Source: a virus (taxonomy: Duplodnaviria; Caudoviricetes). Taken from it: 64,000 bases of DNA. A program made the translations under genes and the position numbers. The stretch is from the IMG/VR virus record IMGVR_UViG_3300037424_001220, positions 3,109 through 67,108 of that record; one strand, given 5' to 3'. Of the stretch, positions 888 to 11,862 are shown piece after piece; position 1 is the first letter of the stretch; each line of letters begins with the position of its first letter. The notes beneath the pieces were generated by a model. The model worked only from the letters and a program-made list of their open reading frames with translations, made no database searches and was not told where the DNA came from.

Positions 888-1781
888 CTATCGACCACTA
901 GCTCTGTTGAACGCGGCGAGAGCCTCGCCGTCCTCTGCGAGGCCGGTTTGCCCGGGCCATGACCAGACCCAGAAGATTGTCCCTGAACGCCCGGGCAGTC
1001 GGCCGAGCTTTGCCCATGTCTCGATCTGCGTCTCGACGGATCCGTTGCGCGACACCGCTCGAAGATCGTAGCCTTGTCCGAGGACAAGGTTCCAGGTTGG
1101 ATGATCAGTGTACGCGGTCACGCACTGCGAGAGCTTCTTGCCTCCGATGCCAGCCCAGTCGTAGCACGATACGCCGAAGTAGTCGACTGCTGGCCGCTCG
1201 TTGCCGACGCGGTCGATGCCCTCGAAGAGGACCGTGCGAAAGCCTGCGTTGCGGACGATCGTGATAGCCTCGTCTCGAAGCTCTCGCGGGATGCCGTTGT
1301 GCAACGGCTCATCCACGACGTAGACCCCAGCGAGTACGCCCGCACGTCGCAGAGGCTCCATCCAAGCGAGCGTCGCTTGCCAGCCTCCGACCGAAGACGC
1401 CACGACTCCGCGCATCTTGAACTGGGAACCCGGACGTTGGCTCTTCTGGCCAATCTCGACACCCCATGTGTCACGAGGATTGCCGAAGACGTGGTGTGCC
1501 GAAACGATCGCGACCTTGCCGTTGGCGAACAGCGCTGACGCGACCACGTTGGCGTCGTCGTCGTAAGTCGGCACGATGAGAACGACGTTGCCGCCGTTGG
1601 CGGCGACCGATGGCGTGTCTGCGCTCTCGGCGAAGGCTCCGAATATCTGCCGGGGTAATGTGGCCAACGGCATCGGTGCGTCGGGAGTGGGTTCGTTGCC
1701 GGGAGTGGTTGGCCCAGAGACGGAGCCACCACAGGCCGAGACGATGACGAGAGCGAGTACGACGAGTCCACGATAGCTCAT
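888..1781 (-). CDS. lipoprotein with a glycoside hydrolase-like (TIM barrel) domain
   Basis: Hydrophobic signal plus lipobox (LVIVSA-CGG), Pro/Thr linker, VYVVDEP acid/base-like motif, GGAGG upstream on the minus strand. Confidence 0.55.
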   Translation of the reverse strand: MSYRGLVVLALVIVSACGGSVSGPTTPGNEPTPDAPMPLATLPRQIFGAFAESADTPSVAANGGNVVLIVPTYDDDANVVASALFANGKVAIVSAHHVFGNPRDTWGVEIGQKSQRPGSQFKMRGVVASSVGGWQATLAWMEPLRRAGVLAGVYVVDEPLHNGIPRELRDEAITIVRNAGFRTVLFEGIDRVGNERPAVDYFGVSCYDWAGIGGKKLSQCVTAYTDHPTWNLVLGQGYDLRAVSRNGSVETQIETWAKLGRLPGRSGTIFWVWSWPGQTGLAEDGEALAAFNRASGR

Positions 1782-1861
1782 TGAATCCTCCTAAGGATCG
1801 AGAGTCCGTGCCGGTGCCCCACGCTAACGTTCCCAAGCGAGTGTGGGACACCGGCGCTGAC

Positions 1862-2185
1862 CTACGACCTCCTTTCTCTCTTGCGTCTCAGCACGCGCAT
1901 CTCGGGTTCCTGGTTCCGGAAGTGCTGACCCTTCTTGCCCGGGTGTGCGTTGATGGACTTGACGGCCTCACCGAGTTCGTGTAGAACGCGGTGCACAGCG
2001 GTCCAGCGGCCCGGTCTCTTCGGGAGACCGAACCGTGCCTCTAGGTGATCCGAGAAGGCACGAGCGTTGCCAAGGACAACGTCACCGTTCTCGGACTCCC
2101 AGATGAACTGACGCTTTCCGTTCTCGACACCGGCATACGAGGTGATGATGGCATCGAGGATCTCCGACCGGTCGAACCACCTCAC
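1862..2185 (-). CDS. hypothetical protein
   Basis: GTG start overlaps the TGA of the upstream gene (VRWFDRSEILDAII...); the ORF-track version is over-extended. Confidence 0.55.
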   Translation of the reverse strand: MRWFDRSEILDAIITSYAGVENGKRQFIWESENGDVVLGNARAFSDHLEARFGLPKRPGRWTAVHRVLHELGEAVKSINAHPGKKGQHFRNQEPEMRVLRRKRERRS

Positions 2186-2589
2186 GGGAGGTTGCTCTTG
2201 CCCGAACTGTAGCGACCGACTTGGGTCAGGCGCTCCGACACCTTGGCGGTGTCCTTCTCGCCCAAGATGAACTCCACGTCGATGACGTCGCCGCTGTTGA
2301 GCCCGTCCCAGTGAGCGGCGACGTAGCGATGAGCCTCGGCCACGGTGCGCGGGGGACGATTCCAGCTGAACGGGTCGTGGCGAATTTCCCCGCCTTCGAG
2401 TCGACCGAACAGCACCAGCGGATACGTGAAGCCGAAGCCCGCTCGACGGAGCAGGTACTCCTCGGCAAGTCCCTGGCCCGTCGCGAGCCATTCGGGCGCG
2501 TTCGGAGTCTCGCTTGGGGCCATGAGGATCCCGAAGCACGGGATGGCGGTGCTGCGGTCGCGTACCTCGAAGAGCTTGATCTGCATCAT
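2182..2589 (-). CDS. hypothetical protein
   Basis: 135 aa ORF with AGAAAGG upstream; codon pattern like neighbouring genes. Confidence 0.6.
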   Translation of the reverse strand: MMQIKLFEVRDRSTAIPCFGILMAPSETPNAPEWLATGQGLAEEYLLRRAGFGFTYPLVLFGRLEGGEIRHDPFSWNRPPRTVAEAHRYVAAHWDGLNSGDVIDVEFILGEKDTAKVSERLTQVGRYSSGKSNLP

Positions 2590-2729
2590 CGATCCTTTCT
2601 GATCTGGCGGATCTCGCGGATGAATCCGCCGAGCCCCGTTCCCAGGTCCTTGAAGAAGCGTCCACCGAACAGGAGCACCACGATCGCCGACACGACGACC
2701 AGTTCAGGTACCCCCAGACCGAATGGCAT

Positions 2730-2996
2730 CTACCTGTCGCTCCTCATGGCGAGGAGAGCGGCCAGCTCCTGCTCCTTACGCTCGATGCTGCGGTCCAGGG
2801 TGACGCGCTTCTCGATGTTGACGCGCTCGGTCTGGCTGAGGGACAGCTCTGCGATGACGAAGCTGCGTAGCCGCTCCATCACTGAGCTCGGGGTCTCCGA
2901 GGGTCCTACCTGTGCGGTGGCCTCGACGTGGACGTGCGAGAACGGCTTGCCCTCGGTCGGACCGTTGGCGCGGAACGAGACGGACGTGATCTTCAT
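2730..2996 (-). CDS. hypothetical protein with C-terminal coiled coil
   Basis: AGGAG ribosome binding site; 88 aa. Confidence 0.6.
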   Translation of the reverse strand: MKITSVSFRANGPTEGKPFSHVHVEATAQVGPSETPSSVMERLRSFVIAELSLSQTERVNIEKRVTLDRSIERKEQELAALLAMRSDR

Positions 2997-3017
2997 GGTT
3001 TCTATCTCCTCTTTTGA

Positions 3018-3248
3018 CTACCGTTCCTTGGGATTCTCCGCCGGGTTGTTGAGACTCCTCACGATCTGCTCCAGCGCCTTGGCCTGTCGCTCTTGGGCAG
3101 CCGCGATCCTCTCGGTGGCGTCGGCGATTCTTTGTTGGACCCCTCTGCCATCATACCCATCAGTCAGTCGCGGGGCCGTGAAGAAAAGCAACGCGATCAT
3201 GATGATGAGGACGATGGACCCCATCACATTCATCAGTACTCGCTTCAT
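3018..3248 (-). CDS. small membrane protein (N-terminal TM helix plus coiled coil)
   Basis: MKRVLMNVMGSIVLIIMIALLFF; AAGGAG upstream. Confidence 0.6.
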   Translation of the reverse strand: MKRVLMNVMGSIVLIIMIALLFFTAPRLTDGYDGRGVQQRIADATERIAAAQERQAKALEQIVRSLNNPAENPKER

Positions 3249-3595
3249 CTCTTCTCCTTGCTTGGATGGACAACGGTTGGCGCGACCTGACGTTGTCGTT
3301 CTTGCGGCACGTGAACGATGCGAACTAGTCTTTCGCGACGGCTCCACCTCCTTGCTTCTCGACAACTGGACACGAAGATGTCGACGTGGCGCCCACGAAC
3401 CAACCCTCCAACGTCGTGGACCATGCGCTCGCCGAAACCCTCGATGTCGATGATGGAACCCAATGGGAGAACGCTGGGGTCGGCTGCGACCGTGAAGCCG
3501 ACGACGGGCTGAGTGCCCGCCTTAGTTGCGTGGCCCCGCTCTACATCGCAGCCGACTGCGTACATCGTGATGACGAAAAGTGTCCCTACGGTCAT
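3245..3595 (-). CDS. 3D (Asp-Asp-Asp) domain protein, peptidoglycan-related
   Basis: VAADPSVLPLGSIIDIEG...VHDVGGLVRGRHVDIFV matches the 3D domain signature. Confidence 0.8.
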   Translation of the reverse strand: MTVGTLFVITMYAVGCDVERGHATKAGTQPVVGFTVAADPSVLPLGSIIDIEGFGERMVHDVGGLVRGRHVDIFVSSCREARRWSRRERLVRIVHVPQERQRQVAPTVVHPSKEKR

Positions 3596-4365
3596 GCGAG
3601 TTCCCCCTTCGGCCTCTCGCCACCGATGGCGTTAGCCTTGAGATTGACCGCGTCAGCAGCGGCGTAGCCTCTGCGGTGTCCTTCAGCGTTGGCATCACCA
3701 CGGGAGCCGTGGATCACCGCTGCTCTACGTGTGTTCTCCGCCATCCACTCCTTTAGCGCCCGCTCCGACTTGTTGAAGCGGATGAGAGCTACGCTAGTAG
3801 CGGATGCTTGTGCCTTGCGTTCTGCCTCGTAGCGTTCCGCTAGCCTCACGGTGAACGCGAGTACGTAGGAGGCCTTGAAGCCGTCGCAGTTTGCCTCGAG
3901 ACCTTGGATGCGGCACTCCTTCACGTAGTCCAGCCGTGCCCTGATGGCCATGCGAAAGATGAGACGCTGAAGGGTGACGATCATGTACTCAGCCACCTCT
4001 GCATCCGACTTGCGCCCGATGAGCGTCAGTGTGTTGGAGTGTTGGTGCACCATGATACGGCAGAAGTGAGCCTTGGCGACGATGCCGGCAAGGCGTTCGA
4101 CCCAAGCGACACGGGCCTTCTTGTGGCGCACACCATCCTTCTCGGCTCCGTCGTACTTGCGGTAGTCGATGTGATGTGGGCCGACGGGCTCCTCGAGTTC
4201 CATCTTCTCGAACTCGATGTCCGTCATCTCGATCTTGTGCTTGAGCAGCAGCCGCTGAATCATCTCAGCAAAGGCTTCGGCCTCTGCTTGTGATCCGATC
4301 TTCTCGGCTGAGTCAGCATGTGCCTTCAGCTTTCGAATGCGATCCAGCACCTTCTCGTCAGCCAA
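3592..4365 (-). CDS. DUF2786-family protein
   Basis: N-terminal KVLDRIRKLKAHA...AEAEAFAEMIQRLLLKHKI; C-terminal GHRRGYAAADAVNL. Confidence 0.7.
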   Translation of the reverse strand: MADEKVLDRIRKLKAHADSAEKIGSQAEAEAFAEMIQRLLLKHKIEMTDIEFEKMELEEPVGPHHIDYRKYDGAEKDGVRHKKARVAWVERLAGIVAKAHFCRIMVHQHSNTLTLIGRKSDAEVAEYMIVTLQRLIFRMAIRARLDYVKECRIQGLEANCDGFKASYVLAFTVRLAERYEAERKAQASATSVALIRFNKSERALKEWMAENTRRAAVIHGSRGDANAEGHRRGYAAADAVNLKANAIGGERPKGELA

Positions 4366-4768
4366 GATTATCCTCCTTCTCCTTCAGTTGGACGATGATC
4401 TCGTCCACGAGGCCGTCCACCGCTTGGAGTGGGCCACCCTCCTCGGACAACTTGTTCATCATGATGCGCGCAGCTTCTTTCTGAATAAGGTAGTTGACCA
4501 CTCGAGAAGAGGATCCGTACAGCCGCGCGAAGTTCTGGGTCTTGGCGCAGCCATGGCACGTGTGCCAGTTGTAGTAGACACCGGTGAGGCAATGGATGCA
4601 TCGGGGATGATTCTCACGGCGGCGACCGCAACTGACGCAACGCCCCAGCACGATGCGCCACCAGATGCCTACTGGCGGCCACGAGCCTTCCTCCATCCGC
4701 CAGAGGATGGCGATGAAGGCAAGGCTCGCGAGGATGGTGAAGACGAACGCCCCGACGGCGCTCACCAC
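4358..4768 (-). CDS. hypothetical protein (N-terminal TM, Cys-rich)
   Basis: Overlapping start/stop with neighbours; CxxC pairs. Confidence 0.5.
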   Translation of the reverse strand: MVSAVGAFVFTILASLAFIAILWRMEEGSWPPVGIWWRIVLGRCVSCGRRRENHPRCIHCLTGVYYNWHTCHGCAKTQNFARLYGSSSRVVNYLIQKEAARIMMNKLSEEGGPLQAVDGLVDEIIVQLKEKEDNLG

Positions 4769-5010
4769 CGCCTCAGTCCGGCGGAGAGGCGCTCACCCAT
4801 ACGTTCGAAGGACGTGAATGCCCGGTCGGTGTACTCGATGGCCACGGCACCGGGCTCGTCCGGATCACCGATGGCGGCGACGAGCTTCTGGCGGATCGGC
4901 CGCACGACGCGTCCGGTCGAGAACAGCATGTGCGGCGCGAGCGGACAGGACCCTCCAACGGGGATCACGCGGTGGCAGGTATTGCAGCGGTTCTTCTTGG
5001 CTCGGCTCAT
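4762..5010 (-). CDS. hypothetical small Zn-ribbon protein
   Basis: MSRAKKNRCNTCHRVIPVGGSCP; GGAGAAG upstream. Confidence 0.5.
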   Translation of the reverse strand: MSRAKKNRCNTCHRVIPVGGSCPLAPHMLFSTGRVVRPIRQKLVAAIGDPDEPGAVAIEYTDRAFTSFERMGERLSAGLRRW

Positions 5011-5214
5011 CTTCTCTTCTCCCCTCTCAGTTCCAGACGAAGCGCAACGGTCCAACACGGCGTGCCCGGTACCATGCGAACCCCCGGGTGCGACGAACGA
5101 CGAGTGATAACTTGTGGTGTAGTAGCCAATCGAAGTGATCGGTCACCTGAGCGTTCTCGTGGGCGAGAAAGATGAATCGCCGCGCGAGGAGATTGATACG
5201 GATGCGGGGCTCCA

Positions 5215-5589
5215 TCAGCTCTTGCTCTCGAGGATGGTGACCATTGGCTCAACGTCGGACGAGTGGTTGTCGGCGGAGCGCATCGTAGCGAGGTCTACGC
5301 AGCAGTGCTGCGAGTGATAGGAACCGGGCCCCGACGCGATGCCTGACGTGCCGCATCTTGGACAGGTCTCTGGTTTCGGCAGCGCTAGGAACCGCCAGTG
5401 GTGCATCCCTGGCTCCGAGAGGCGCTCCGCGTGCACAGCGCAGATGTTGTAGTCGCGCGAGCGAGGCTGTGGCACGAATCGGCCCTCGATCTCAACCACG
5501 TGCGCTTCGCACCACGTCTTGCCGACGGCCACATTCTGATCGGGCGTTGGATCACCGTTCTTGTCGATCCACTGGATCTCGCACTTCAT
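5215..5589 (-). CDS. hypothetical protein
   Basis: Starts MKCEIQWIDKNG after AAGGAGG, directly downstream of twister copy 1. Confidence 0.65.
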   Translation of the reverse strand: MKCEIQWIDKNGDPTPDQNVAVGKTWCEAHVVEIEGRFVPQPRSRDYNICAVHAERLSEPGMHHWRFLALPKPETCPRCGTSGIASGPGSYHSQHCCVDLATMRSADNHSSDVEPMVTILESKS

Positions 5590-5604
5590 GTCATCCTCCT
5601 TACG

Positions 5605-5666
5605 CCCGGGCTTGGGACCGAGCCGCGCATTACACGGTGCCACGGTGGTGGCACCGTGCCCTCTGC
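5605..5666 (-). ncRNA. twister ribozyme, circularly permuted (P5-like), copy 1
   Basis: Minus strand GCA GAGGG CACGGUGCCAC-CACC-GUGGCACCGUG UAA UGC GC G GCUCGG UCCCAAGC CCGGGC: P1 11 bp, P2, P4 and the conserved L4 loop; predicted cleavage between 5632 and 5631. Confidence 0.88.
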
Positions 5667-5670
5667 TCTA

Positions 5671-6765
5671 CTAGAAGGCCATCTCGAAGACCTTGCCCGC
5701 CGCACGCTCGGCTCGCACGCGCTCGTCAGCGTACGGAATCGACTTGGCGTGCTCGCTCAGGCCGTTGCCCATTCCCCAAACACTGGTCGGCGAGCCGTAC
5801 CAGTCCTCGTGCTTCTCGGCGAGGAGGTACCCCGCCTCGAGCGTCTTGCGGGGCACGCCGAGCGATCGCATGCCGAAGAGCTTGTCGAGCAGTTCGTCCT
5901 TGTCCGCGGCGATCTCGTGCGCCATGCACCGCTTGATCTTCGCTTCGTCCTCACTGGCCGACGCCGTCGCGTACGCCTTCAGCTCGACGCGGAGTTGCGA
6001 GAACGCCCGGTCGTCCGCGTTGCCCGTGTGACGAATGCGCAACTCGCGCACTCCCTCGACGCCCCACACGTTGTGGTTGCCACAGATGTAGGAGTAGAGG
6101 AACGTGAGAAGCCAGAACGCCTTGTCGCCGACCTCGGAGTTGGCCACCATGAACCCACGGCTGAGTCCGCCACCGGGCAACGACTCGAAGACGCGGCGGT
6201 CGTTGTCCACGAGGAACGCGAAGACGTCGTGGTCGCTGGCGTACAGGCCACGCGTCTTACCACCGGACACCAGATCCGTTTCCGGCGCGGGCTGCCATTC
6301 CTTCGGGAGATTCATGAGCCGCTGCGTGATGTCGCGGTCCCAGATGCGAGAGTACCCGGTGCCCGTGAAGGCGCGGATGGCCGTGGAGCCGTTGACGTCG
6401 AGCAGGAGCTTCGCGCTGTCCAGGTCCTTGCCGCGTTCGGCGAGACCGTAGTTGATGTTCTGCGCGGCCAACTCGGCCGGGAGGTCACGCATGTAGTCCG
6501 TGGGCGCACCGATGCGAGCGCAGAGCTGGCCGAAGCTCCAGTGCGTGAAGGAGGCGGGAGTGTTGGTCTTGCCGAGCAAGCGGATGTTGCCGCGGTCGGC
6601 CTCGACGCGGAGGTCGCTGTAGCGAACGTAGTTGCTCTCGCAAGCGCGACGCGTACGGGCATCGACGGCGGAGTGGAGCTCGGCGATGGAACCGAACGAC
6701 TGATCGGCCGGACGCGAAGCCCACTGGTTCGAAGCCTGCGAGAGAACGGAGTTCGTGGTGGTCAT
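5671..6765 (-). CDS. DUF932-family protein
   Basis: FTHWSFGQLCARIGAP, YSRIWD, GLYASDHDVFAFLVD, NSEVG, ICGNH motifs; AGGAG upstream. Confidence 0.75.
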   Translation of the reverse strand: MTTTNSVLSQASNQWASRPADQSFGSIAELHSAVDARTRRACESNYVRYSDLRVEADRGNIRLLGKTNTPASFTHWSFGQLCARIGAPTDYMRDLPAELAAQNINYGLAERGKDLDSAKLLLDVNGSTAIRAFTGTGYSRIWDRDITQRLMNLPKEWQPAPETDLVSGGKTRGLYASDHDVFAFLVDNDRRVFESLPGGGLSRGFMVANSEVGDKAFWLLTFLYSYICGNHNVWGVEGVRELRIRHTGNADDRAFSQLRVELKAYATASASEDEAKIKRCMAHEIAADKDELLDKLFGMRSLGVPRKTLEAGYLLAEKHEDWYGSPTSVWGMGNGLSEHAKSIPYADERVRAERAAGKVFEMAF

Positions 6766-6908
6766 GGGTTCTACTCTCCTGGATAGCCGGCGTACCGAGA
6801 CGAGTGGATTCTCATCTGGGCAAACCAGCGGTTAAGAGGCAACTCGCCGCCTCCCCTCCCTCCGCCACATACAAAAGGGTGTGACGGAGGAAGGGCAGCC
6901 GATGCGAA

Positions 6909-7412
6909 CTACGACTGGTCGGTGTTGTCGAGCTTCGACTCCTTGGCGTCGAGGTCGAAGTAGCTAGTGATCGGTCGCTCTGTGAGGACGGACTGGAGCT
7001 CCGCGGCCAACTCCGTCACCTCGGTGTAGAGCTTGATCGCCGCAACGGCGTCGGCCACATCACGGCCGGTGCTGCTCCAACTGACTTCGACTCTCGCTTC
7101 CCAGAACTCGATGCTCTGTCTGTTGTTGTCTGGGTTGGTAACACGCTTCTCCCAGACGCGATTGAAGCGAACGTAGAGGGTGGCGTTGATGCCCCATCCG
7201 CGCTTGTACTCGCAGCTCAACCCGTCGCCGTACTCCGGCTGACAGCCACGGATCGCGGTCTCGACGATGATGCGCTTGGCAGTCTGCACGGCCTCCTCAT
7301 AGGACAAGCCGTTGTTGAGTGCCCTGGTGTATGTCCGGCGCTTGGATTCCAACTCTCGTTCGGCCTTCTGCTCGTCGGTCTCCGGCACGGTCTGCGTTCT
7401 GTTCTTGGCCAC
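6909..7412 (-). CDS. hypothetical protein
   Basis: GTG start (VAKNRTQ) after AAGGGAG, downstream of twister copy 2. Confidence 0.65.
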   Translation of the reverse strand: MAKNRTQTVPETDEQKAERELESKRRTYTRALNNGLSYEEAVQTAKRIIVETAIRGCQPEYGDGLSCEYKRGWGINATLYVRFNRVWEKRVTNPDNNRQSIEFWEARVEVSWSSTGRDVADAVAAIKLYTEVTELAAELQSVLTERPITSYFDLDAKESKLDNTDQS

Positions 7413-7436
7413 GTTCTCTTCTCCCTTGTTTTGGCA

Positions 7437-7492
7437 CCCGGGCTTGGGACCGGGCTGCGCATTACACCCGGTGTCCACCGGGTGCCCTCTGC
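7437..7492 (-). ncRNA. twister ribozyme, circularly permuted, copy 2
   Basis: GCA GAGGG CACCCGGU-GGAC-ACCGGGUG UAA UGC GC AG CCCGG UCCCAAGC CCGGG; predicted cleavage 7464/7463; overlaps the upstream TAG. Confidence 0.9.
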
Positions 7493-8106
7493 TAGTCGTG
7501 GTCGAACGTCTCGACGAGAACCGGACCGACGCCGAGGCGCGTCTCGAGTTCAGCTGAGACGCGGCGACCACGGTTCTTGGACAGAGTGTAGCCCGTGCCG
7601 AAGCCGGCGGGCACGAGCGTGACGGGCCGCCCGGCGCGCAGCGCATCGGCTGACTTCTTGAACCAGTCGGGCTGAACCTTGAACGGCAGCCCCGGAACCG
7701 GGACTGACGTGGCGCGTTGCTGTCTTGCGGTGAGGCAACGCTCGTACTCGCCGCTAAGAAGCGCCTCCAGTGTGGAGTAGACGTGTCCGTACGCCGGCTT
7801 CTTGCCCGTTAGGCGGCACGAGTAGGCGTCCACGCCACGGCGGGTGAACGAGCAGTGGTCGACGAGAGTGTGTCCATCGACGAGGACACCATCGATCGCT
7901 TCAGCCTTCTCCCAAGCATCCTTTGGGTTGAGCTTGGCGACGTTGAGAACGATGTCGATACCGTTCTTCGAGAAGCTGACCCATTGGCCGTCCTCGCCCC
8001 AGGAAACTTGTCCGTCGTTGTACCCGATGCCGTTCTTGACGGTCCACTCACCGAGAGTCTGGCCGCTGCTGATCAACTTGGCCACCATCTTCTGGATCTT
8101 CGTCAT
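7492..8106 (-). CDS. hypothetical protein
   Basis: Starts MTKIQKMVAKL after AAGGAG; bracketed by twister copies 3 and 2. Confidence 0.65.
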   Translation of the reverse strand: MTKIQKMVAKLISSGQTLGEWTVKNGIGYNDGQVSWGEDGQWVSFSKNGIDIVLNVAKLNPKDAWEKAEAIDGVLVDGHTLVDHCSFTRRGVDAYSCRLTGKKPAYGHVYSTLEALLSGEYERCLTARQQRATSVPVPGLPFKVQPDWFKKSADALRAGRPVTLVPAGFGTGYTLSKNRGRRVSAELETRLGVGPVLVETFDHD

Positions 8107-8118
8107 CTCTTCTCCTTG

Positions 8119-8170
8119 CCTGGGCTTGAGACCAGACCGCGCATTACAGCGCCGAAGCGCTGCTCTCTGC
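8119..8170 (-). ncRNA. twister ribozyme, circularly permuted, copy 3
   Basis: GCA GAGAG CAGCGC-UUCG-GCGCUG UAA UGC GC GG UCUGG UCUCAAGC CCAGG; compensatory GAGAG/UCUC pseudoknot pair, CUGG/CCAG in P4, UUCG tetraloop; predicted cleavage 8146/8145. Confidence 0.9.
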
Positions 8171-8416
8171 TTAGTACTCGCTCGTTGCGATGGAGGCAAC
8201 CTCGTGCTCCATGATCTCGACTTCGCGGCCGTCGTCGAAGCGGATCGTGAAGCAGTCCATGTAGAGAGTCTTGCCCGTCTCTTCATCTTCGCTGGGGGTC
8301 TCTTCGCGAGAGAAGGCGACGAGCGTGCCCGTCTTGCCGGCATCGTCGGCCTGCGGGTGCTTGTCGCGGCTGAGGAACCCGTACATGTCGACCGTGCCAA
8401 CCTTGATCTTCGTCAT
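8171..8416 (-). CDS. hypothetical protein
   Basis: 81 aa; AAGGAG site; stop codon abuts twister copy 3. Confidence 0.65.
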   Translation of the reverse strand: MTKIKVGTVDMYGFLSRDKHPQADDAGKTGTLVAFSREETPSEDEETGKTLYMDCFTIRFDDGREVEIMEHEVASIATSEY

Positions 8417-8432
8417 CGTCTCTTCTCCTTCG

Positions 8433-8464
8433 CCCCGGGCTTGAGACCGGAGCCGCTCCTCTGC
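8433..8464 (-). ncRNA. degenerate twister-like element, copy 4
   Basis: GCAGAG GAGCGGCU CCGG UCUCAAGC CCGGGG keeps P4/L4 and the GCAGAG start but lacks the P1 hairpin and UAAUGC. Confidence 0.6.
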
Positions 8465-8706
8465 TAGACAGGGACCACCACTCGGGCAGGGTACCCGAAG
8501 CAGTGCACGACGTGGCCGTCGTCGAGTTGGTGCTCGAACTCGACAGGCTCCTCACCGGCCCACACCATGTTCGTGGGCTGCGCGAAGAAGATGCCGTTCT
8601 GCGCGGCCACGACCACGAGGTCGGGCTCGCCCTGACGCTCGACGATCTCACCGACGACGAAGCGGGGTCCCCGGGTTACGGCATGACGACGAGGATGGTG
8701 GCGCAT
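8464..8706 (-). CDS. hypothetical protein
   Basis: 80 aa ORF ending at the TAG that abuts twister-like copy 4; start uncertain (8706 or 8721). Confidence 0.5.
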   Translation of the reverse strand: MRHHPRRHAVTRGPRFVVGEIVERQGEPDLVVVAAQNGIFFAQPTNMVWAGEEPVEFEHQLDDGHVVHCFGYPARVVVPV

Positions 8707-8802
8707 GTTACAGACTCCCATACTTCTTGAGGAGGTGGGCGATTCTGCGAGCGATGCGTGCCCGCTGCTTCTTGCGTTCCGTCCAAGACTTGCGGCACAT
8801 GA

Positions 8803-8997
8803 CTAGCTCTCCTTCTCGATTTGATGTGGCGTGATCTCGAGAATCTCGTCGTCGACCTGCGCGTGCTTCAGTAGACCGACGAGGAGCACTGTGCCGTGTT
8901 TCTCGGTGCCGAGCACCTTAGCACGCTCCCGTGGCCACTTCTTGTTCGCCTTGAGCCAGACCACATCTCCTACCTTTACGCTTCGCTGCTTCTTCAT
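8803..8997 (-). CDS. small KOW/SH3-like protein
   Basis: SVKVGDVVWLK...RAKVLG; GGAGG upstream. Confidence 0.5.
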   Translation of the reverse strand: MKKQRSVKVGDVVWLKANKKWPRERAKVLGTEKHGTVLLVGLLKHAQVDDEILEITPHQIEKES

Positions 8998-9007
8998 GAT
9001 GTCCCTC

Positions 9008-9151
9008 CTAGACCAGTTCAACGAGCCAACCACCCTGGAGCTTCGAGACCGAGATCTCGACGCCAGCCGTACGGCACGCGTCCAGCAACGTGCTGAGCCG
9101 TTGTCCGCTGTACAACCAGACCTGACCGGTGACGACGAGACGCTCCAGCAT
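9008..9151 (-). CDS. hypothetical small protein
   Basis: MLERLVVTGQ after AAGGAG, downstream of twister copy 5. Confidence 0.55.
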   Translation of the reverse strand: MLERLVVTGQVWLYSGQRLSTLLDACRTAGVEISVSKLQGGWLVELV

Positions 9152-9163
9152 GATCTCTCCTTG

Positions 9164-9218
9164 CCCGGGCTTGGGACCGGGCTGCGCATTAGCACCGCTC
9201 GTGGCGGTGCCCCTCTGC
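9164..9218 (-). ncRNA. twister ribozyme, circularly permuted, copy 5
   Basis: GCA GAGGG GCACCGC-CACGA-GCGGUGC UAA UGC GC AG CCCGG UCCCAAGC CCGGG; predicted cleavage 9191/9190. Confidence 0.9.
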
Positions 9219-9220
9219 AC

Positions 9221-9415
9221 TTACTTGGACTTCTTCAGGACCACGGCTTTCGCCGCTTCGATCGCGGCTGCTCTACGCTGGTATTCAGGGCCGATGCGTC
9301 GGTCGCCGAAAATCACCTGAAAGCCACCACGCGGCGCGATGGACACGGAAACGGTGATGGAGCCGCTGCTGATGTGTGCCACTGCTCCACGGTCAAAGAC
9401 AACCACGTTGGCCAT
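9221..9415 (-). CDS. hypothetical protein, first gene of the minus-strand block
   Basis: 64 aa; AAGGAG site; flanked by twister copies 6 and 5. Confidence 0.6.
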   Translation of the reverse strand: MANVVVFDRGAVAHISSGSITVSVSIAPRGGFQVIFGDRRIGPEYQRRAAAIEAAKAVVLKKSK

Positions 9416-9427
9416 GATCTCTCCTTG

Positions 9428-9498
9428 CTCGGACTTGGGACCGGGCTGTGCATTAGACGGGCAGGAGGCCGCGTGGCCTCCTCATCCGTCCCCTCTGC
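9428..9498 (-). ncRNA. twister ribozyme, circularly permuted, copy 6
   Basis: GCA GAGGG GACGG...AGGAGGCC-ACGC-GGCCUCCU...CCGUC UAA UGC AC AG CCCGG UCCCAAGU CCGAG; compensatory AC/GU replaces GC/GC in the second pseudoknot; predicted cleavage 9455/9454. Confidence 0.88.
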
Positions 9499-10036
9499 TC
9501 TTCGGCACCTATACAAAGGTGCCACGGCCGTTCGCTGTGCGTTCGCGGGGTATGTGTGGGTCGTGGGACCGTGGGTCCTCGCCACTCCTCTATCGCCCTC
9601 TGGGTCTTGGGCACATGGTGCCTCGCCGTCATGGGGCTCTCGGGACGCGCTAGCTTGCTGGCCGTATGCGTACCCTGTTGCGTTGCCACGGGGGTTACCC
9701 GGGGGGTACGTGCGCGTTGCCTTTGTGGCCCGGGGGTATGGGTGCCCGCCGCACGGCCTACGCTGGCCCGTGCCTTGTGCACCCCGTATGCCCGGGGCGG
9801 CAACACTCGGCCCCCGGTGCGCCGGGGGCCTACTTGGGGGCCGGGGGCCGGGCTGGGTGCCCGGGGCTTCCCGCCTTGCTAGGCTTGCTTTGGGGTGCCG
9901 CCCCCGGGCTTGCCTACCGCCCTCCGCCCGGCTCCTGGTGTCCCGACAAAGCAAAGGTACATTGATTTAAGGGTAATGCCAAGCACAAAAGACAGAGGCC
10001 TATCAGTCACTTAGCGAGGCATCCTGGTAAGATGTT

Positions 10037-10062
10037 GGTGTGACTGGGATTACAGTCACACC
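10037..10062. promoter_or_regulatory. perfect 10-bp inverted repeat in the AT-richer divergent control region
   Basis: GGTGTGACTG-GGATTA-CAGTCACACC between the leftward and rightward gene blocks. Confidence 0.45.
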
Positions 10063-10599
10063 TTATTATGCCTTTTTCCTACAACGTCGGTGCTTTAGAA
10101 TGAGTCAGTTACAACCTTCCGCTCCCTGGCTCGCGCCAGCCTTGGCCTGAGTACCTATACCGACCCCCGAGTTATAGGTGCTCCTAGCTCGCTCCTCAGG
10201 AGGCGACTTTTCCGCCTGTCCCCCCGGACTCTCCCTGCTCGCGAGCGCTCGCGAATGAGGGGGAAAACCTTAGGAGTCCATCATAGCGAAGGACCTGGGG
10301 CTCCCCGGGGACTGCTGAAAAAGTCGCGTCTCAGGACTCCGCGTAGCTCGCGATAGGTCAGTGGTGAATACCTTGCTGGCCAAAACGGAAACGAGCTCCT
10401 TGGCAAGAGCCACAGAGGAAACCGACTCGCGAGCTACCACGCGATACCCCATACAAAGGTGCGGCAACCTGGGGTGCGCCAGCATCCCAGCTACTCCCCG
10501 GGGCTTGCTACCGCCACGCGAATCGCGGTACCTTGCAGGGCAAGCAACGTAAGGTTGCCCGGGGGCACAAGGCTCCCGGCCCCAAGGAGGGAAGAAAAC

Positions 10600-11452: not shown

Positions 11453-11862
11453 AGCAGAGCATCGTCTTCGAGTTGGATCAGGTGCGTTTCACCTTGGTCC
11501 TCGAGAAGTTGAACGATGGACGGTACTGTACCTCGGCTGTTCATTCCAAGTTTGGCCGTGGAGCTACCAAGACTCACGCCACTTACAAGGCTGCGTATCG
11601 ATGCTGGACTAGAATGGAGGCCGATGCGCTGAAGCTTGGATGGCCACGACGAGTGATCTCGCAGATCGATCTCCGTCCCCCTTCGCCCATGTTGCTCACG
11701 GAGGACGGTCGCAAGCTCTTCAGGGACTCTCGGACCGGTGAGTATCACGAGGACATCTCCTCCTCACGTCCCCTCCTTCTTGCTCGCGATCCTGTGGTGG
11801 CACAGCCTGCTGACGAGGAGGATCACTTCTTGATTGAGAGTCTGCCAAGGCCGACGCGTTGA
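11449..11862 (+). CDS. WGR-like domain protein
   Basis: RFTLVLEK...FGRGATKTH...ALKLGW; aligns with 10600-10992. Confidence 0.5.
   Translation: MKQSIVFELDQVRFTLVLEKLNDGRYCTSAVHSKFGRGATKTHATYKAAYRCWTRMEADALKLGWPRRVISQIDLRPPSPMLLTEDGRKLFRDSRTGEYHEDISSSRPLLLARDPVVAQPADEEDHFLIESLPRPTR

What the first reader, a model, noticed from the sequence alone, without database searches (positions are those of the whole stretch)
5605..9498. Array of circularly permuted twister ribozymes between early phage genes
Seen: five intergenic elements on the coding (minus) strand share the order GCA-GAGGG-[P1 hairpin]-UAA-UGC-GC-[P4 stem with UCCCAAGC loop]. Four begin at or within a few nt of the upstream stop codon, copy 6 heads the block with no upstream gene, and all end a few nt before the next Shine-Dalgarno. 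P1 sequences differ completely but always pair (11, 8, 6, 7 and 5+8 bp; one UUCG loop). Both pseudoknots covary: copy 3 has GAGAG with UCUC, copy 6 has AC with GU. Established: this is the twister core (U|A cleavage, general base G in GAGGG), with ends opened between P4 and P2 as in type P5. Inference: the phage self-processes its polycistronic early transcript into gene-sized units. In this permutation each upstream piece would keep the P1 hairpin as a 3' cap with a 2',3'-cyclic phosphate, and each downstream piece would start with a 5'-OH plus the P4 hairpin, giving nuclease-resistant mRNAs without host RNase III/E. Such ends are RtcB substrates, so circular mRNAs are also possible.
Basis: partly seen in the sequence, partly recalled or inferred. 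Interest (0 to 1): 0.95.

Follow-up and report, generated by a model that had tools for sequence, protein, structure and literature searches.

The report
Twister ribozymes between phage genes
Five copies of a known self-cutting RNA (the type-P5 twister ribozyme) plus one broken copy sit between small genes of an uncultured phage and probably cut one long message into shorter ones; this layout recurs in many phages and was proposed in 2011, so it is a clean example, not a new kind of element.

Summary
All five fold into P2/P1/P4. A sixth copy (8432-8464) has lost P1 and the cleavage site.

Each copy starts 0-4 nt after a stop codon, except the first, which has no gene upstream. Each is followed by a Shine-Dalgarno sequence and a start codon.

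The arrangement is not special to this phage. The same signature occurs in 77 IMG/VR stretches. Arrays reach 19 copies in one contig and 16 copies within 8 kb of a Vicinamibacterales chromosome. Across 134 distinct copies, 98.5% of structure cells pair, and both pseudoknots pair in 100%.

This scan had already reported the same arrangement in at least seven other phage genomes. Perreault et al. 2011 proposed transcript processing by clustered ribozymes in prophages.

Self-cleavage of the polycistronic transcript is therefore likely but untested here. Nuclease-resistant ends and circular mRNAs remain speculation: the phage has no RtcB, and the 3' products show no robust 5' cap structure.

Verdict: a new member of a known kind, of modest interest.

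The parts
9427..9499 (-). It has a bipartite P1 (5+8 bp) and the T2 variant AC/GU. Predicted cleavage is between U9455 and A9454. No gene lies upstream.
   Evidence: Rfam 38.6 bits, E 1.7e-4; own model 55.6 bits; fold; GC3 test of upstream ORFs
9163..9219 (-). Twister-P5 copy. It starts 1 nt after the TAA stop at 9221-9223. Predicted cleavage is U9191|A9190. AAGGAG and the ATG at 9151 follow.
   Evidence: Rfam 55.3 bits; fold; sequence
8432..8464 (-). Decayed copy. GCAGAGG is joined directly to the P4/L4 hairpin (UCUC variant). P1 and the UAAUGC cleavage segment are deleted, so it is predicted not to cleave.
   Evidence: Sequence; alignment with the five intact copies; fold keeps only P4; no Rfam or own-model hit
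8118..8171 (-). Twister-P5 copy with a UUCG-capped P1 and the T1 variant GAGAG/UCUC. Its first base is the last A of the TAA stop (8171-8173). Predicted cleavage is U8146|A8145.
   Evidence: Rfam 48.1 bits; fold
7436..7493 (-). Twister-P5 copy, the best-scoring one. It overlaps the TAG stop at 7492-7494. Predicted cleavage is U7464|A7463.
   Evidence: Rfam 59.9 bits; own model 76.5 bits; fold
5604..5667 (-). Twister-P5 copy with an 11-bp P1, located after the tandem TAG TAG stop of the DUF932-like gene. Predicted cleavage is U5632|A5631.
   Evidence: Rfam 51.7 bits; fold
5215..9415 (-). Ten minus-strand genes punctuated by the ribozymes: 9415-9221 (64 aa), 9151-9008 (47), 8997-8803 (64), 8800-8708 (30), 8706-8464 (80), 8416-8171 (81), 8106-7492 (204), 7412-6909 (167), 6765-5671 (364, DUF932-like) and 5589-5215 (124). 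All but the DUF932-like gene lack family matches.
   Evidence: ORF list; GC3 0.69-0.88 against GC2 0.29-0.49 in every gene; PHROGs and Pfam; tblastn to DUF932 proteins of cultured phages
9500..10450 (.). Non-coding region of about 950 nt upstream of the first ribozyme, presumed to hold the promoter of the leftward operon. Plus-strand genes run rightward further on; the first long one starts at 11859.
   Evidence: ORFs here lack the coding GC pattern; gene orientation; the promoter scan gives nothing on the minus strand

Best explanation
These are five functional type-P5 twister self-cleaving ribozymes, plus one deletion relic, built into the intercistronic spacers of the promoter-proximal 4 kb of the phage's leftward operon of small accessory genes. 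As the operon is transcribed, each element folds: P2, the P1 hairpin, then P4, whose loop closes pseudoknots T1 and T2. It then cuts itself between U and A of UAAUGC by internal transesterification. Predicted products are a roughly 50-nt leader and pieces of 264 nt (1 gene), 1045 nt (5 genes), 682 nt (1 gene) and 1832 nt (2 genes), followed by the rest of the operon. Each upstream piece ends, just after its stop codon, in GCAGAGGG plus a GC-rich P1 hairpin with a 2',3'-cyclic phosphate. Each downstream piece starts with a 5'-OH about 35-45 nt ahead of its own strong ribosome-binding site. The likely benefit is that each unit gets its own stability and a translation start freed from upstream context. 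What is shown: family membership, structure, strand, and placement here and in about 200 other copies. What is inferred: cleavage in vivo. The downstream benefit is a conjecture.
For: Five Rfam hits lie above the curated cut-off and none elsewhere in the genome. MFE folds equal the family structure. All strictly conserved core segments are present: GCAGAG, UAAUGC and the L4 loop UCCCAAGC or its covarying variants. In 110 unique copies from IMG/VR plus the window, the T1 middle pair is G-C 91 and A-U 19 with no mismatch. The T2 pair is A-U 72, G-C 28 and G-U 10 with no mismatch, although the search pattern allowed mismatches. On 134 distinct copies aligned by a model that did not contain the pseudoknots, 98.5% of cells pair against 71.6% in shuffles and 29-48% when partners are slid. 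T1 and T2 pair in 100% of cells, with compensatory changes. All copies lie on the coding strand. Of the 110 copies, 96 abut the stop of an ORF of at least 30 aa, 103 are followed by SD, start and an ORF of at least 30 aa, and 91 have both. Junctions in the window without a ribozyme are tightly coupled (gaps of 1-10 nt), so the ribozymes mark unit boundaries. Published precedent: clustered hammerheads flanking genes in prophages cleave about 2-kb polycistronic RNAs in vitro, and in one case in vivo (PMC3088659). The same role has been suggested for twister (PMC6765202).
Against: There are no RNA data, the host is unknown, and cleavage has not been tested for any of these copies. The head copy scores only 1 bit above Rfam's cut-off. 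A terminating ribosome on the abutting stop codon would cover the 5' strand of P2 and T1, so cleavage efficiency in vivo could be lower than in vitro (inference). The stabilisation idea is weak. The 3' products fold no better than shuffles (z -0.6 to +1.3), and P4 sits behind 8 unpaired nt. From memory, RNase J1 degrades the 5'-OH product of glmS. Fourteen of 15 phages with a related DUF932 gene do without ribozymes, so the function is dispensable.
Confidence: 0.8

Rival explanations
1. The main role is evolutionary rather than RNA processing. The conserved ribozyme-plus-RBS module serves as a short shared sequence at which accessory genes are swapped, duplicated or lost by recombination (cassette boundaries). 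Cleavage would be secondary or merely tolerated.
For: The repeated unit extends beyond the ribozyme into the RBS: two copies share GCAAGGAGAGATCATG and three share AAGGAGAAGAGA. The dead copy and the copy at 8171 also share the first 12 nt of otherwise unrelated ORFs. One junction carries a deletion derivative. Flanking genes are extremely diverse: 224 unique proteins fall into 180 clusters with a median of about 100 aa. Ribozymes are absent next to most DUF932 homologues.
Against: Recombination sites would not need conserved catalytic nucleotides, compensatory changes in five helices, or 100% pairing of two pseudoknots. P1 differs completely between copies, which leaves only about 8 and 20 nt of shared sequence. 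The strict sense orientation and stop-to-SD placement point to function at the RNA level.
Confidence: 0.1
2. Cleavage is conditional and acts as a translation-gated switch. Because the ribozyme starts at or inside the upstream stop codon, a terminating or queued ribosome prevents P2 and T1 from forming. The junction would then be cut only when the upstream gene is poorly translated, tying mRNA fate to translation.
For: In 38 of 110 copies a TAG stop supplies the first G of GCAGAG. In 72 of the 96 copies with an upstream ORF of at least 30 aa, the stop ends within 2 nt upstream of that G or overlaps it. All four gene-preceded copies in the window lie 0-4 nt from the stop.
Against: Tight spacing is expected anyway in compact phage genomes. 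Twister folds and cleaves fast in vitro (rates of about 2.4 per min in PMC5408937, Table 1) and could act before the first ribosome arrives. The leader copy has no upstream ORF yet is conserved in form. No direct evidence exists.
Confidence: 0.07
3. The cut pieces are rejoined by a host RtcB-type ligase into circular or spliced mRNAs.
For: Twister products carry the 2',3'-cyclic phosphate and 5'-OH ends that RtcB joins (established chemistry). RtcB is widespread in bacteria: 10 of 14 control genomes have it.
Against: The phage encodes no RtcB. Perreault et al. looked for spliced or circular products of clustered hammerheads and found none (PMC3088659). Nothing in the sequence brings the two ends of a unit together: there is no P5-like pairing between flanks.
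Confidence: 0.02
4. The elements are inactive relics or plain structural hairpins (exonuclease blocks or terminator-like) that only resemble twister.
For: One copy is demonstrably decayed. The head copy is barely above Rfam's threshold.
Against: Every catalytic-core position is intact in all five. Selection keeps both pseudoknots paired through compensatory changes across more than 130 distinct copies. Plain hairpins would not need that.
Confidence: 0.02

Closest known systems
Type-P5 twister self-cleaving ribozyme (Rfam RF02684, clan CL00120; class of Roth et al. 2014, reviewed in PMC5408937)
   Same: Same core, same helices P1, P2 and P4, same pseudoknots T1 and T2, same U|A cleavage site, and the same permutation with P1 closed by a loop and the ends where P5 would be. 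All five copies pass Rfam's curated threshold.
   Different: Nothing structural differs. There is no P3 or P5 stem, both of which are optional in the family. P1 is long and GC-rich (6-13 bp). One copy has an internal loop in P1.
Clustered hammerhead ribozymes flanking genes in prophages (Perreault et al. 2011, PMC3088659)
   Same: Several self-cleaving ribozymes on the coding strand flank single genes or short gene blocks of variable identity in phage DNA. The proposed role is processing of long phage transcripts into operon- or gene-length mRNAs. Circular or spliced products were already considered.
   Different: The ribozyme class differs (twister, not hammerhead). Here, and in the 12 array loci tested, every ribozyme is Twister-P5 (97 of 97 Rfam hits). 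Placement is very regular, from stop codon to Shine-Dalgarno.
Twister arrays reported earlier by this scan in other phage genomes (e1-5891544, e1-5891554, e1-5770504, e1-3390987, e1-945832 type P5; e1-5751813 type P1)
   Same: The same element, the same stop-to-RBS placement among small genes of a promoter-proximal operon, and the same conclusion.
   Different: This array is smaller (5 intact copies against 6-30). It includes a leader copy with no upstream gene and a deletion relic.
Synthetic ribozyme insulators and ribozyme-assisted polycistronic expression (pRAP, PMC9872166)
   Same: A self-cleaving ribozyme (twister in pRAP) is placed between cistrons so that each is expressed from its own processed mRNA with its own RBS.
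   Different: Those are engineered constructs with measured effects. Here the effect on expression is only inferred.

Membership tests
Twister ribozyme, type P5 (RF02684) | Score at or above the curated gathering threshold of the family covariance model, over the full model length | tested here: met
   Five hits of 38.6-59.9 bits against a cut-off of 37.6, all spanning model positions 1-58
Twister ribozyme, type P5 (RF02684) | Helices P1, P2 and P4, supported by covariation | tested here: met
   MFE folds of all five copies. Across 134 distinct copies, P1 pairs in 96.2%, P2 in 100% and P4 in 99.6% of cells, and 14 of 16 nested pairs show changes on both sides.
Twister ribozyme, type P5 (RF02684) | Double pseudoknot: T1 (GGG of GAGGG with CCC of loop L4) and T2 (RC after P2 with GY of L4) | tested here: met
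   Both variants in the window are compensated: GAGAG/UCUC and AC/GU. There are 0 mismatches in 110 copies and 100% pairing in A2, with pseudoknots that were not part of the aligning model.
Twister ribozyme, type P5 (RF02684) | Conserved core nucleotides in L1 and L4, and the U|A cleavage dinucleotide next to P1 | tested here: met
   GCAGAG, UAAUGC and UCYCAAG are invariant in all five copies. The catalytic guanine lies near the 3' end of type-P1 constructs (G45 or G48, PMC5408937), which is consistent with the GAGGG segment. That assignment was not tested.
Twister ribozyme, type P5 (RF02684) | Circular permutation: P1 closed by a loop and termini between P4 and P2 | tested here: met
   Order P2-5', P1 hairpin, UAA, P2-3', T2, P4. 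The flanks show no P5 pairing.
Twister ribozyme, type P5 (RF02684) | Site-specific, Mg2+-dependent self-cleavage giving 2',3'-cyclic phosphate and 5'-OH ends | not testable with these tools
   Requires in vitro transcription and cleavage assays
Ribozyme-punctuated phage operons (Perreault et al. 2011 type arrangement) | Several self-cleaving ribozymes on the coding strand flanking genes or short gene blocks in phage DNA | tested here: met
   Five copies within 3.9 kb of a virus record, all sense to ten genes with coding GC3 signal. The layout recurs in 77 IMG/VR stretches.
Ribozyme-punctuated phage operons (Perreault et al. 2011 type arrangement) | The polycistronic RNA is actually cut at each ribozyme | not testable with these tools
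   No transcript data for this uncultured phage

The most novel reading that the evidence does not exclude
The ribozyme plus its Shine-Dalgarno (and sometimes the first codons) is a portable, self-insulating expression cassette that phages copy from junction to junction. Because it starts inside the upstream stop codon, its cleavage is gated by translation termination, so each accessory gene's mRNA fate depends on how well its upstream neighbour is translated.
Probability: 0.08. Interest if true: 0.55.

Novelty: new member of a known kind. Interest (0 to 1): 0.27.

Why it matters
The biological role of twister ribozymes in bacteria and phages is still described as speculative (PMC5408937, PMC6765202). 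Regular arrays like this one are good material for testing that role, for three reasons. The cleavage sites are predictable to the nucleotide. One junction carries a natural dead copy as an internal control. The same design (ribozyme, then RBS, then gene) is what synthetic biologists build on purpose. This window adds one more example to a pattern that this scan and the literature already hold, so by itself it opens no new question.

Tried and rejected
- Megablast of the 4.3-kb block against 50,697 cultured-phage records found nothing, so no annotated close relative exists.
- PHROGs and Pfam on the ten flanking genes matched only the DUF932-like gene.
- I looked for conserved ribozyme positions next to DUF932 homologues. 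Of 15 loci, only L089 has Twister-P5 copies (two, flanking the gene), and no locus has any other Rfam ribozyme class. The ribozymes therefore do not travel with that gene.
- My own covariance model R1 was narrower than Rfam's: it gave 19 bits to one L089 copy and missed the other, both of which Rfam calls. I therefore relied on Rfam for membership.
- A search for phage-encoded RtcB was negative.
- The sigma-70 promoter and terminator scan found nothing useful on the minus strand.
- The CYTTTGTATR motif (3 sites) did not extend into a longer shared element, so I do not call it a promoter.
- Folding the predicted 3' products to test the '5' hairpin cap' idea gave no structure beyond chance.
- I could not read Roth et al. 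2014 or Weinberg et al. 2015 (not held). I therefore cannot say whether pure Twister-P5 arrays of this regularity were already described there.
- The CHiTA survey of natural twisters does not discuss phage context.


Full report
**What is there.** The window is bases 3109-67108 of a 67,108-base IMG/VR virus record estimated to be 93% complete. Rfam 15 at its curated thresholds reports five RNA matches in the window. All are Twister-P5 (RF02684), full length, on the minus strand: 7438-7493 (59.9 bits), 9165-9219 (55.3), 5606-5667 (51.7), 8120-8171 (48.1) and 9429-9499 (38.6, against a cut-off of 37.6). Relaxing the search to E<=1 adds nothing, and the whole record has no further copy. A strict signature (GCAGAGRG, 8-38 nt, TAATGCRC, 3-8 nt, GGTCYCAAG) matches five times against zero in 100 dinucleotide shuffles.

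Thermodynamic folding of each copy alone returns the family's nested structure: a 3-bp P2, a P1 hairpin, and a 5-6-bp P4 with an 8-nt loop. A sixth element at 8432-8464 keeps GCAGAGG and the P4/L4 hairpin but lacks P1 and UAAUGC. It is a deletion relic that cannot cleave.

**Context in the window.** Ten minus-strand ORFs between 9415 and 5215 show the codon-position GC pattern of real genes in this 61% GC genome: GC3 is 0.69-0.88 and GC2 is 0.29-0.49. The long ORFs between 9453 and 11352 do not show it. The block therefore begins after about 950 nt of non-coding DNA. Genes from 11859 onward run rightward.

Four ribozymes start 0-4 nt after a stop codon, and two of them share a base with it. 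The copy at 9499 has no gene upstream. Each copy is followed within 2-14 nt by an AAGGAG-type Shine-Dalgarno sequence and a start codon. Junctions without a ribozyme (9008/8997, 8803/8800, 8708/8706) are tight, translationally coupled joints. The predicted cleavage products are therefore not all gene-sized. They are a leader and pieces of 264 nt (1 gene), 1045 nt (5 genes, across the dead copy), 682 nt (1 gene) and 1832 nt (2 genes), followed by the remainder of the operon.

Nine of the ten proteins match no Pfam or PHROG family. The 364-aa protein is DUF932-like.

**Is it a selected structure?** The same signature occurs in 77 stretches of IMG/VR contigs. In 110 unique copies, the T1 middle pair is G-C 91 times and A-U 19 times, and it is never mismatched. 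The T2 pair is A-U 72, G-C 28 and G-U 10, and it is never mismatched, although the pattern allowed any combination.

A covariance model built from 12 equal-length copies found 229 matches in these stretches and the same five in the window. On its alignment of 134 distinct copies, 98.5% of cells form standard pairs. Column shuffles give 71.6%, and sliding the partners gives 29-48%. Eighteen of 21 pairs show changes on both sides. T1 and T2, which were not part of the model, pair in 100% of cells. Copies outside the strict pattern add further compensations, for example GCG/CGC and GUG/CAC in P2, and GAAGG with UCCU in T1. Relatedness among copies inflates such counts. The slid-partner control and the independent pseudoknots argue that the signal is real.

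**Placement is a rule, not an accident.**
- Of the 110 copies, 96 abut the stop codon of an ORF of at least 30 aa on the same strand. In 38 of these, a TAG stop supplies the first G of the core.
- 103 copies are followed by SD, a start codon and an ORF of at least 30 aa.
- 91 copies have both.
- The flanking proteins are small (median about 100 aa) and very diverse: 224 unique sequences fall into 180 clusters.
- The few recurrent families include DUF932, in several independent loci, and DUF2786/DUF7168.
- Arrays are often larger than here. Rfam finds 19 copies in three stretches of one 90.6-kb contig (L042, L058, L080), 11-12 in L030, L038 and L054, and 16 within 8 kb of a Vicinamibacterales MAG chromosome (L110). 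All 97 Rfam hits in 12 array loci are Twister-P5 and no other ribozyme class.
- In 185,579 species genomes the strict pattern occurs in only 15 stretches. These come from Clostridia, Acidobacteriota, Proteobacteria, Desulfobacterota, Patescibacteria and others. This subtype therefore looks concentrated in phage-derived sequence, although I did not normalise for collection size, and its hosts are diverse.
- The ribozymes do not travel with particular genes. Of 15 viral loci with a DUF932 relative, only L089 has Twister-P5 copies (two, flanking the gene), and no locus has any other Rfam ribozyme.

**How it most likely works.** Family membership, strand and placement are shown. Cleavage between U and A of UAAUGC, giving a 2',3'-cyclic phosphate and a 5'-OH, follows from the established chemistry of the class (PMC5408937). 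I infer that this happens on the phage's leftward transcript.

In the P5 permutation, the upstream piece keeps only GCAGAGGG plus the long, GC-rich P1 hairpin directly after its stop codon. That is a plausible 3' exonuclease block. The downstream piece keeps AAUGC, the T2 strand and P4 ahead of its own strong RBS.

The repeated unit includes the RBS. Two copies share GCAAGGAGAGATCATG and three share AAGGAGAAGAGA, whereas the RBSs at ribozyme-free junctions differ. This fits a role as a self-contained 5'-UTR module, like engineered ribozyme insulators and the twister-based pRAP system (PMC9872166).

The specific claim of nuclease-resistant 5' ends is weak. The predicted 3' products fold no better than shuffles (z -0.6 to +1.3). 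P4 is not always kept in the MFE, and it sits behind 8 unpaired nt. From memory, 5' hairpins protect in E. coli only when nearly terminal, and RNase J1 degrades the 5'-OH product of glmS. Circular mRNAs have no support: the phage has no RtcB, and Perreault et al. looked for such products of clustered hammerheads without finding them (PMC3088659).

**Comparison with what is known.** Perreault et al. 2011 described multiple hammerheads flanking single genes or short gene blocks in prophages. They showed cleavage of about 2-kb polycistronic RNAs in vitro, and in one case in vivo. They proposed processing of long phage transcripts into operon- or gene-length mRNAs, and they mentioned circular or spliced products (PMC3088659). 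Later work states that hammerhead and twister ribozymes are commonly associated with phage genes and with other ribozymes (PMC4604425). It also suggests processing of polycistronic transcripts for twister (PMC6765202). I could not read Roth 2014 or Weinberg 2015.

This scan has already reported the same arrangement in at least seven other phage genomes, with the same verdict, and it noted the decayed copy of this window. The present case is therefore a new member of a known kind. It has two modest features of its own: a leader copy with no upstream gene, which would remove the 5'-triphosphate end of the whole operon transcript, and a natural dead copy.

**Verdict.** Novelty is low, and interest is about 0.27.

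Noticed in passing
window 9505-9530, 6860-6900 and 10447-10462 (minus strand): A short motif, CACC(C)TTTTGTATRG, occurs three times, always on the minus strand. One site is 10 nt upstream of the first ribozyme, inside the hairpin GGCACC/GGTGCC. One is in the 143-nt spacer ahead of the DUF932-like gene, inside a longer imperfect hairpin. One is about 950 nt further upstream. It could be a promoter, operator or RNA signal of the leftward operon. The shared part is only about 14 nt.
   Followed up: partly
window 8396-8470 and 8086-8177 (minus strand): The dead copy and the copy at 8171 share the UCUC loop variant, the RBS AAGGAGAAGAGA and the first 12 nt of the downstream ORFs (ATGACGAAGATC). The two proteins are otherwise unrelated (BLASTP E 1.7). 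This hints at recombination or duplication of the ribozyme-RBS module, reaching into the start of the gene.
   Followed up: partly
L110 (Vicinamibacterales MAG chromosome OY762226.1), 1135-7796: Sixteen Rfam-level Twister-P5 copies lie within 8 kb of a 5.85-Mb bacterial chromosome, all on one strand and about one per 450 nt. This is the densest array seen here, and it gives a candidate host phylum (Acidobacteriota) for high-GC twister-array phages.
   Followed up: no
window 5671-6765; L089 6001-7140; L033 4473-5399; L057 9624-10535: DUF932-family genes recur as ribozyme-flanked genes in several unrelated phage contigs. In L089 the gene has a Twister-P5 on each side. DUF2786/DUF7168 proteins recur as well. 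Both are families of unknown function.
   Followed up: partly
window 9960-10140: An AT-rich island (about 52% GC in a 61% GC genome) lies inside the non-coding divergent region. It contains a perfect 10-bp hairpin (10037-10062) and the only sigma-70-like promoter match of the region, which is on the plus strand. It may be the control or origin region between the two arms.
   Followed up: no
window 5668-5673 (minus strand): The DUF932-like gene ends in a tandem stop, TAG TAG, immediately before the ribozyme.
   Followed up: no
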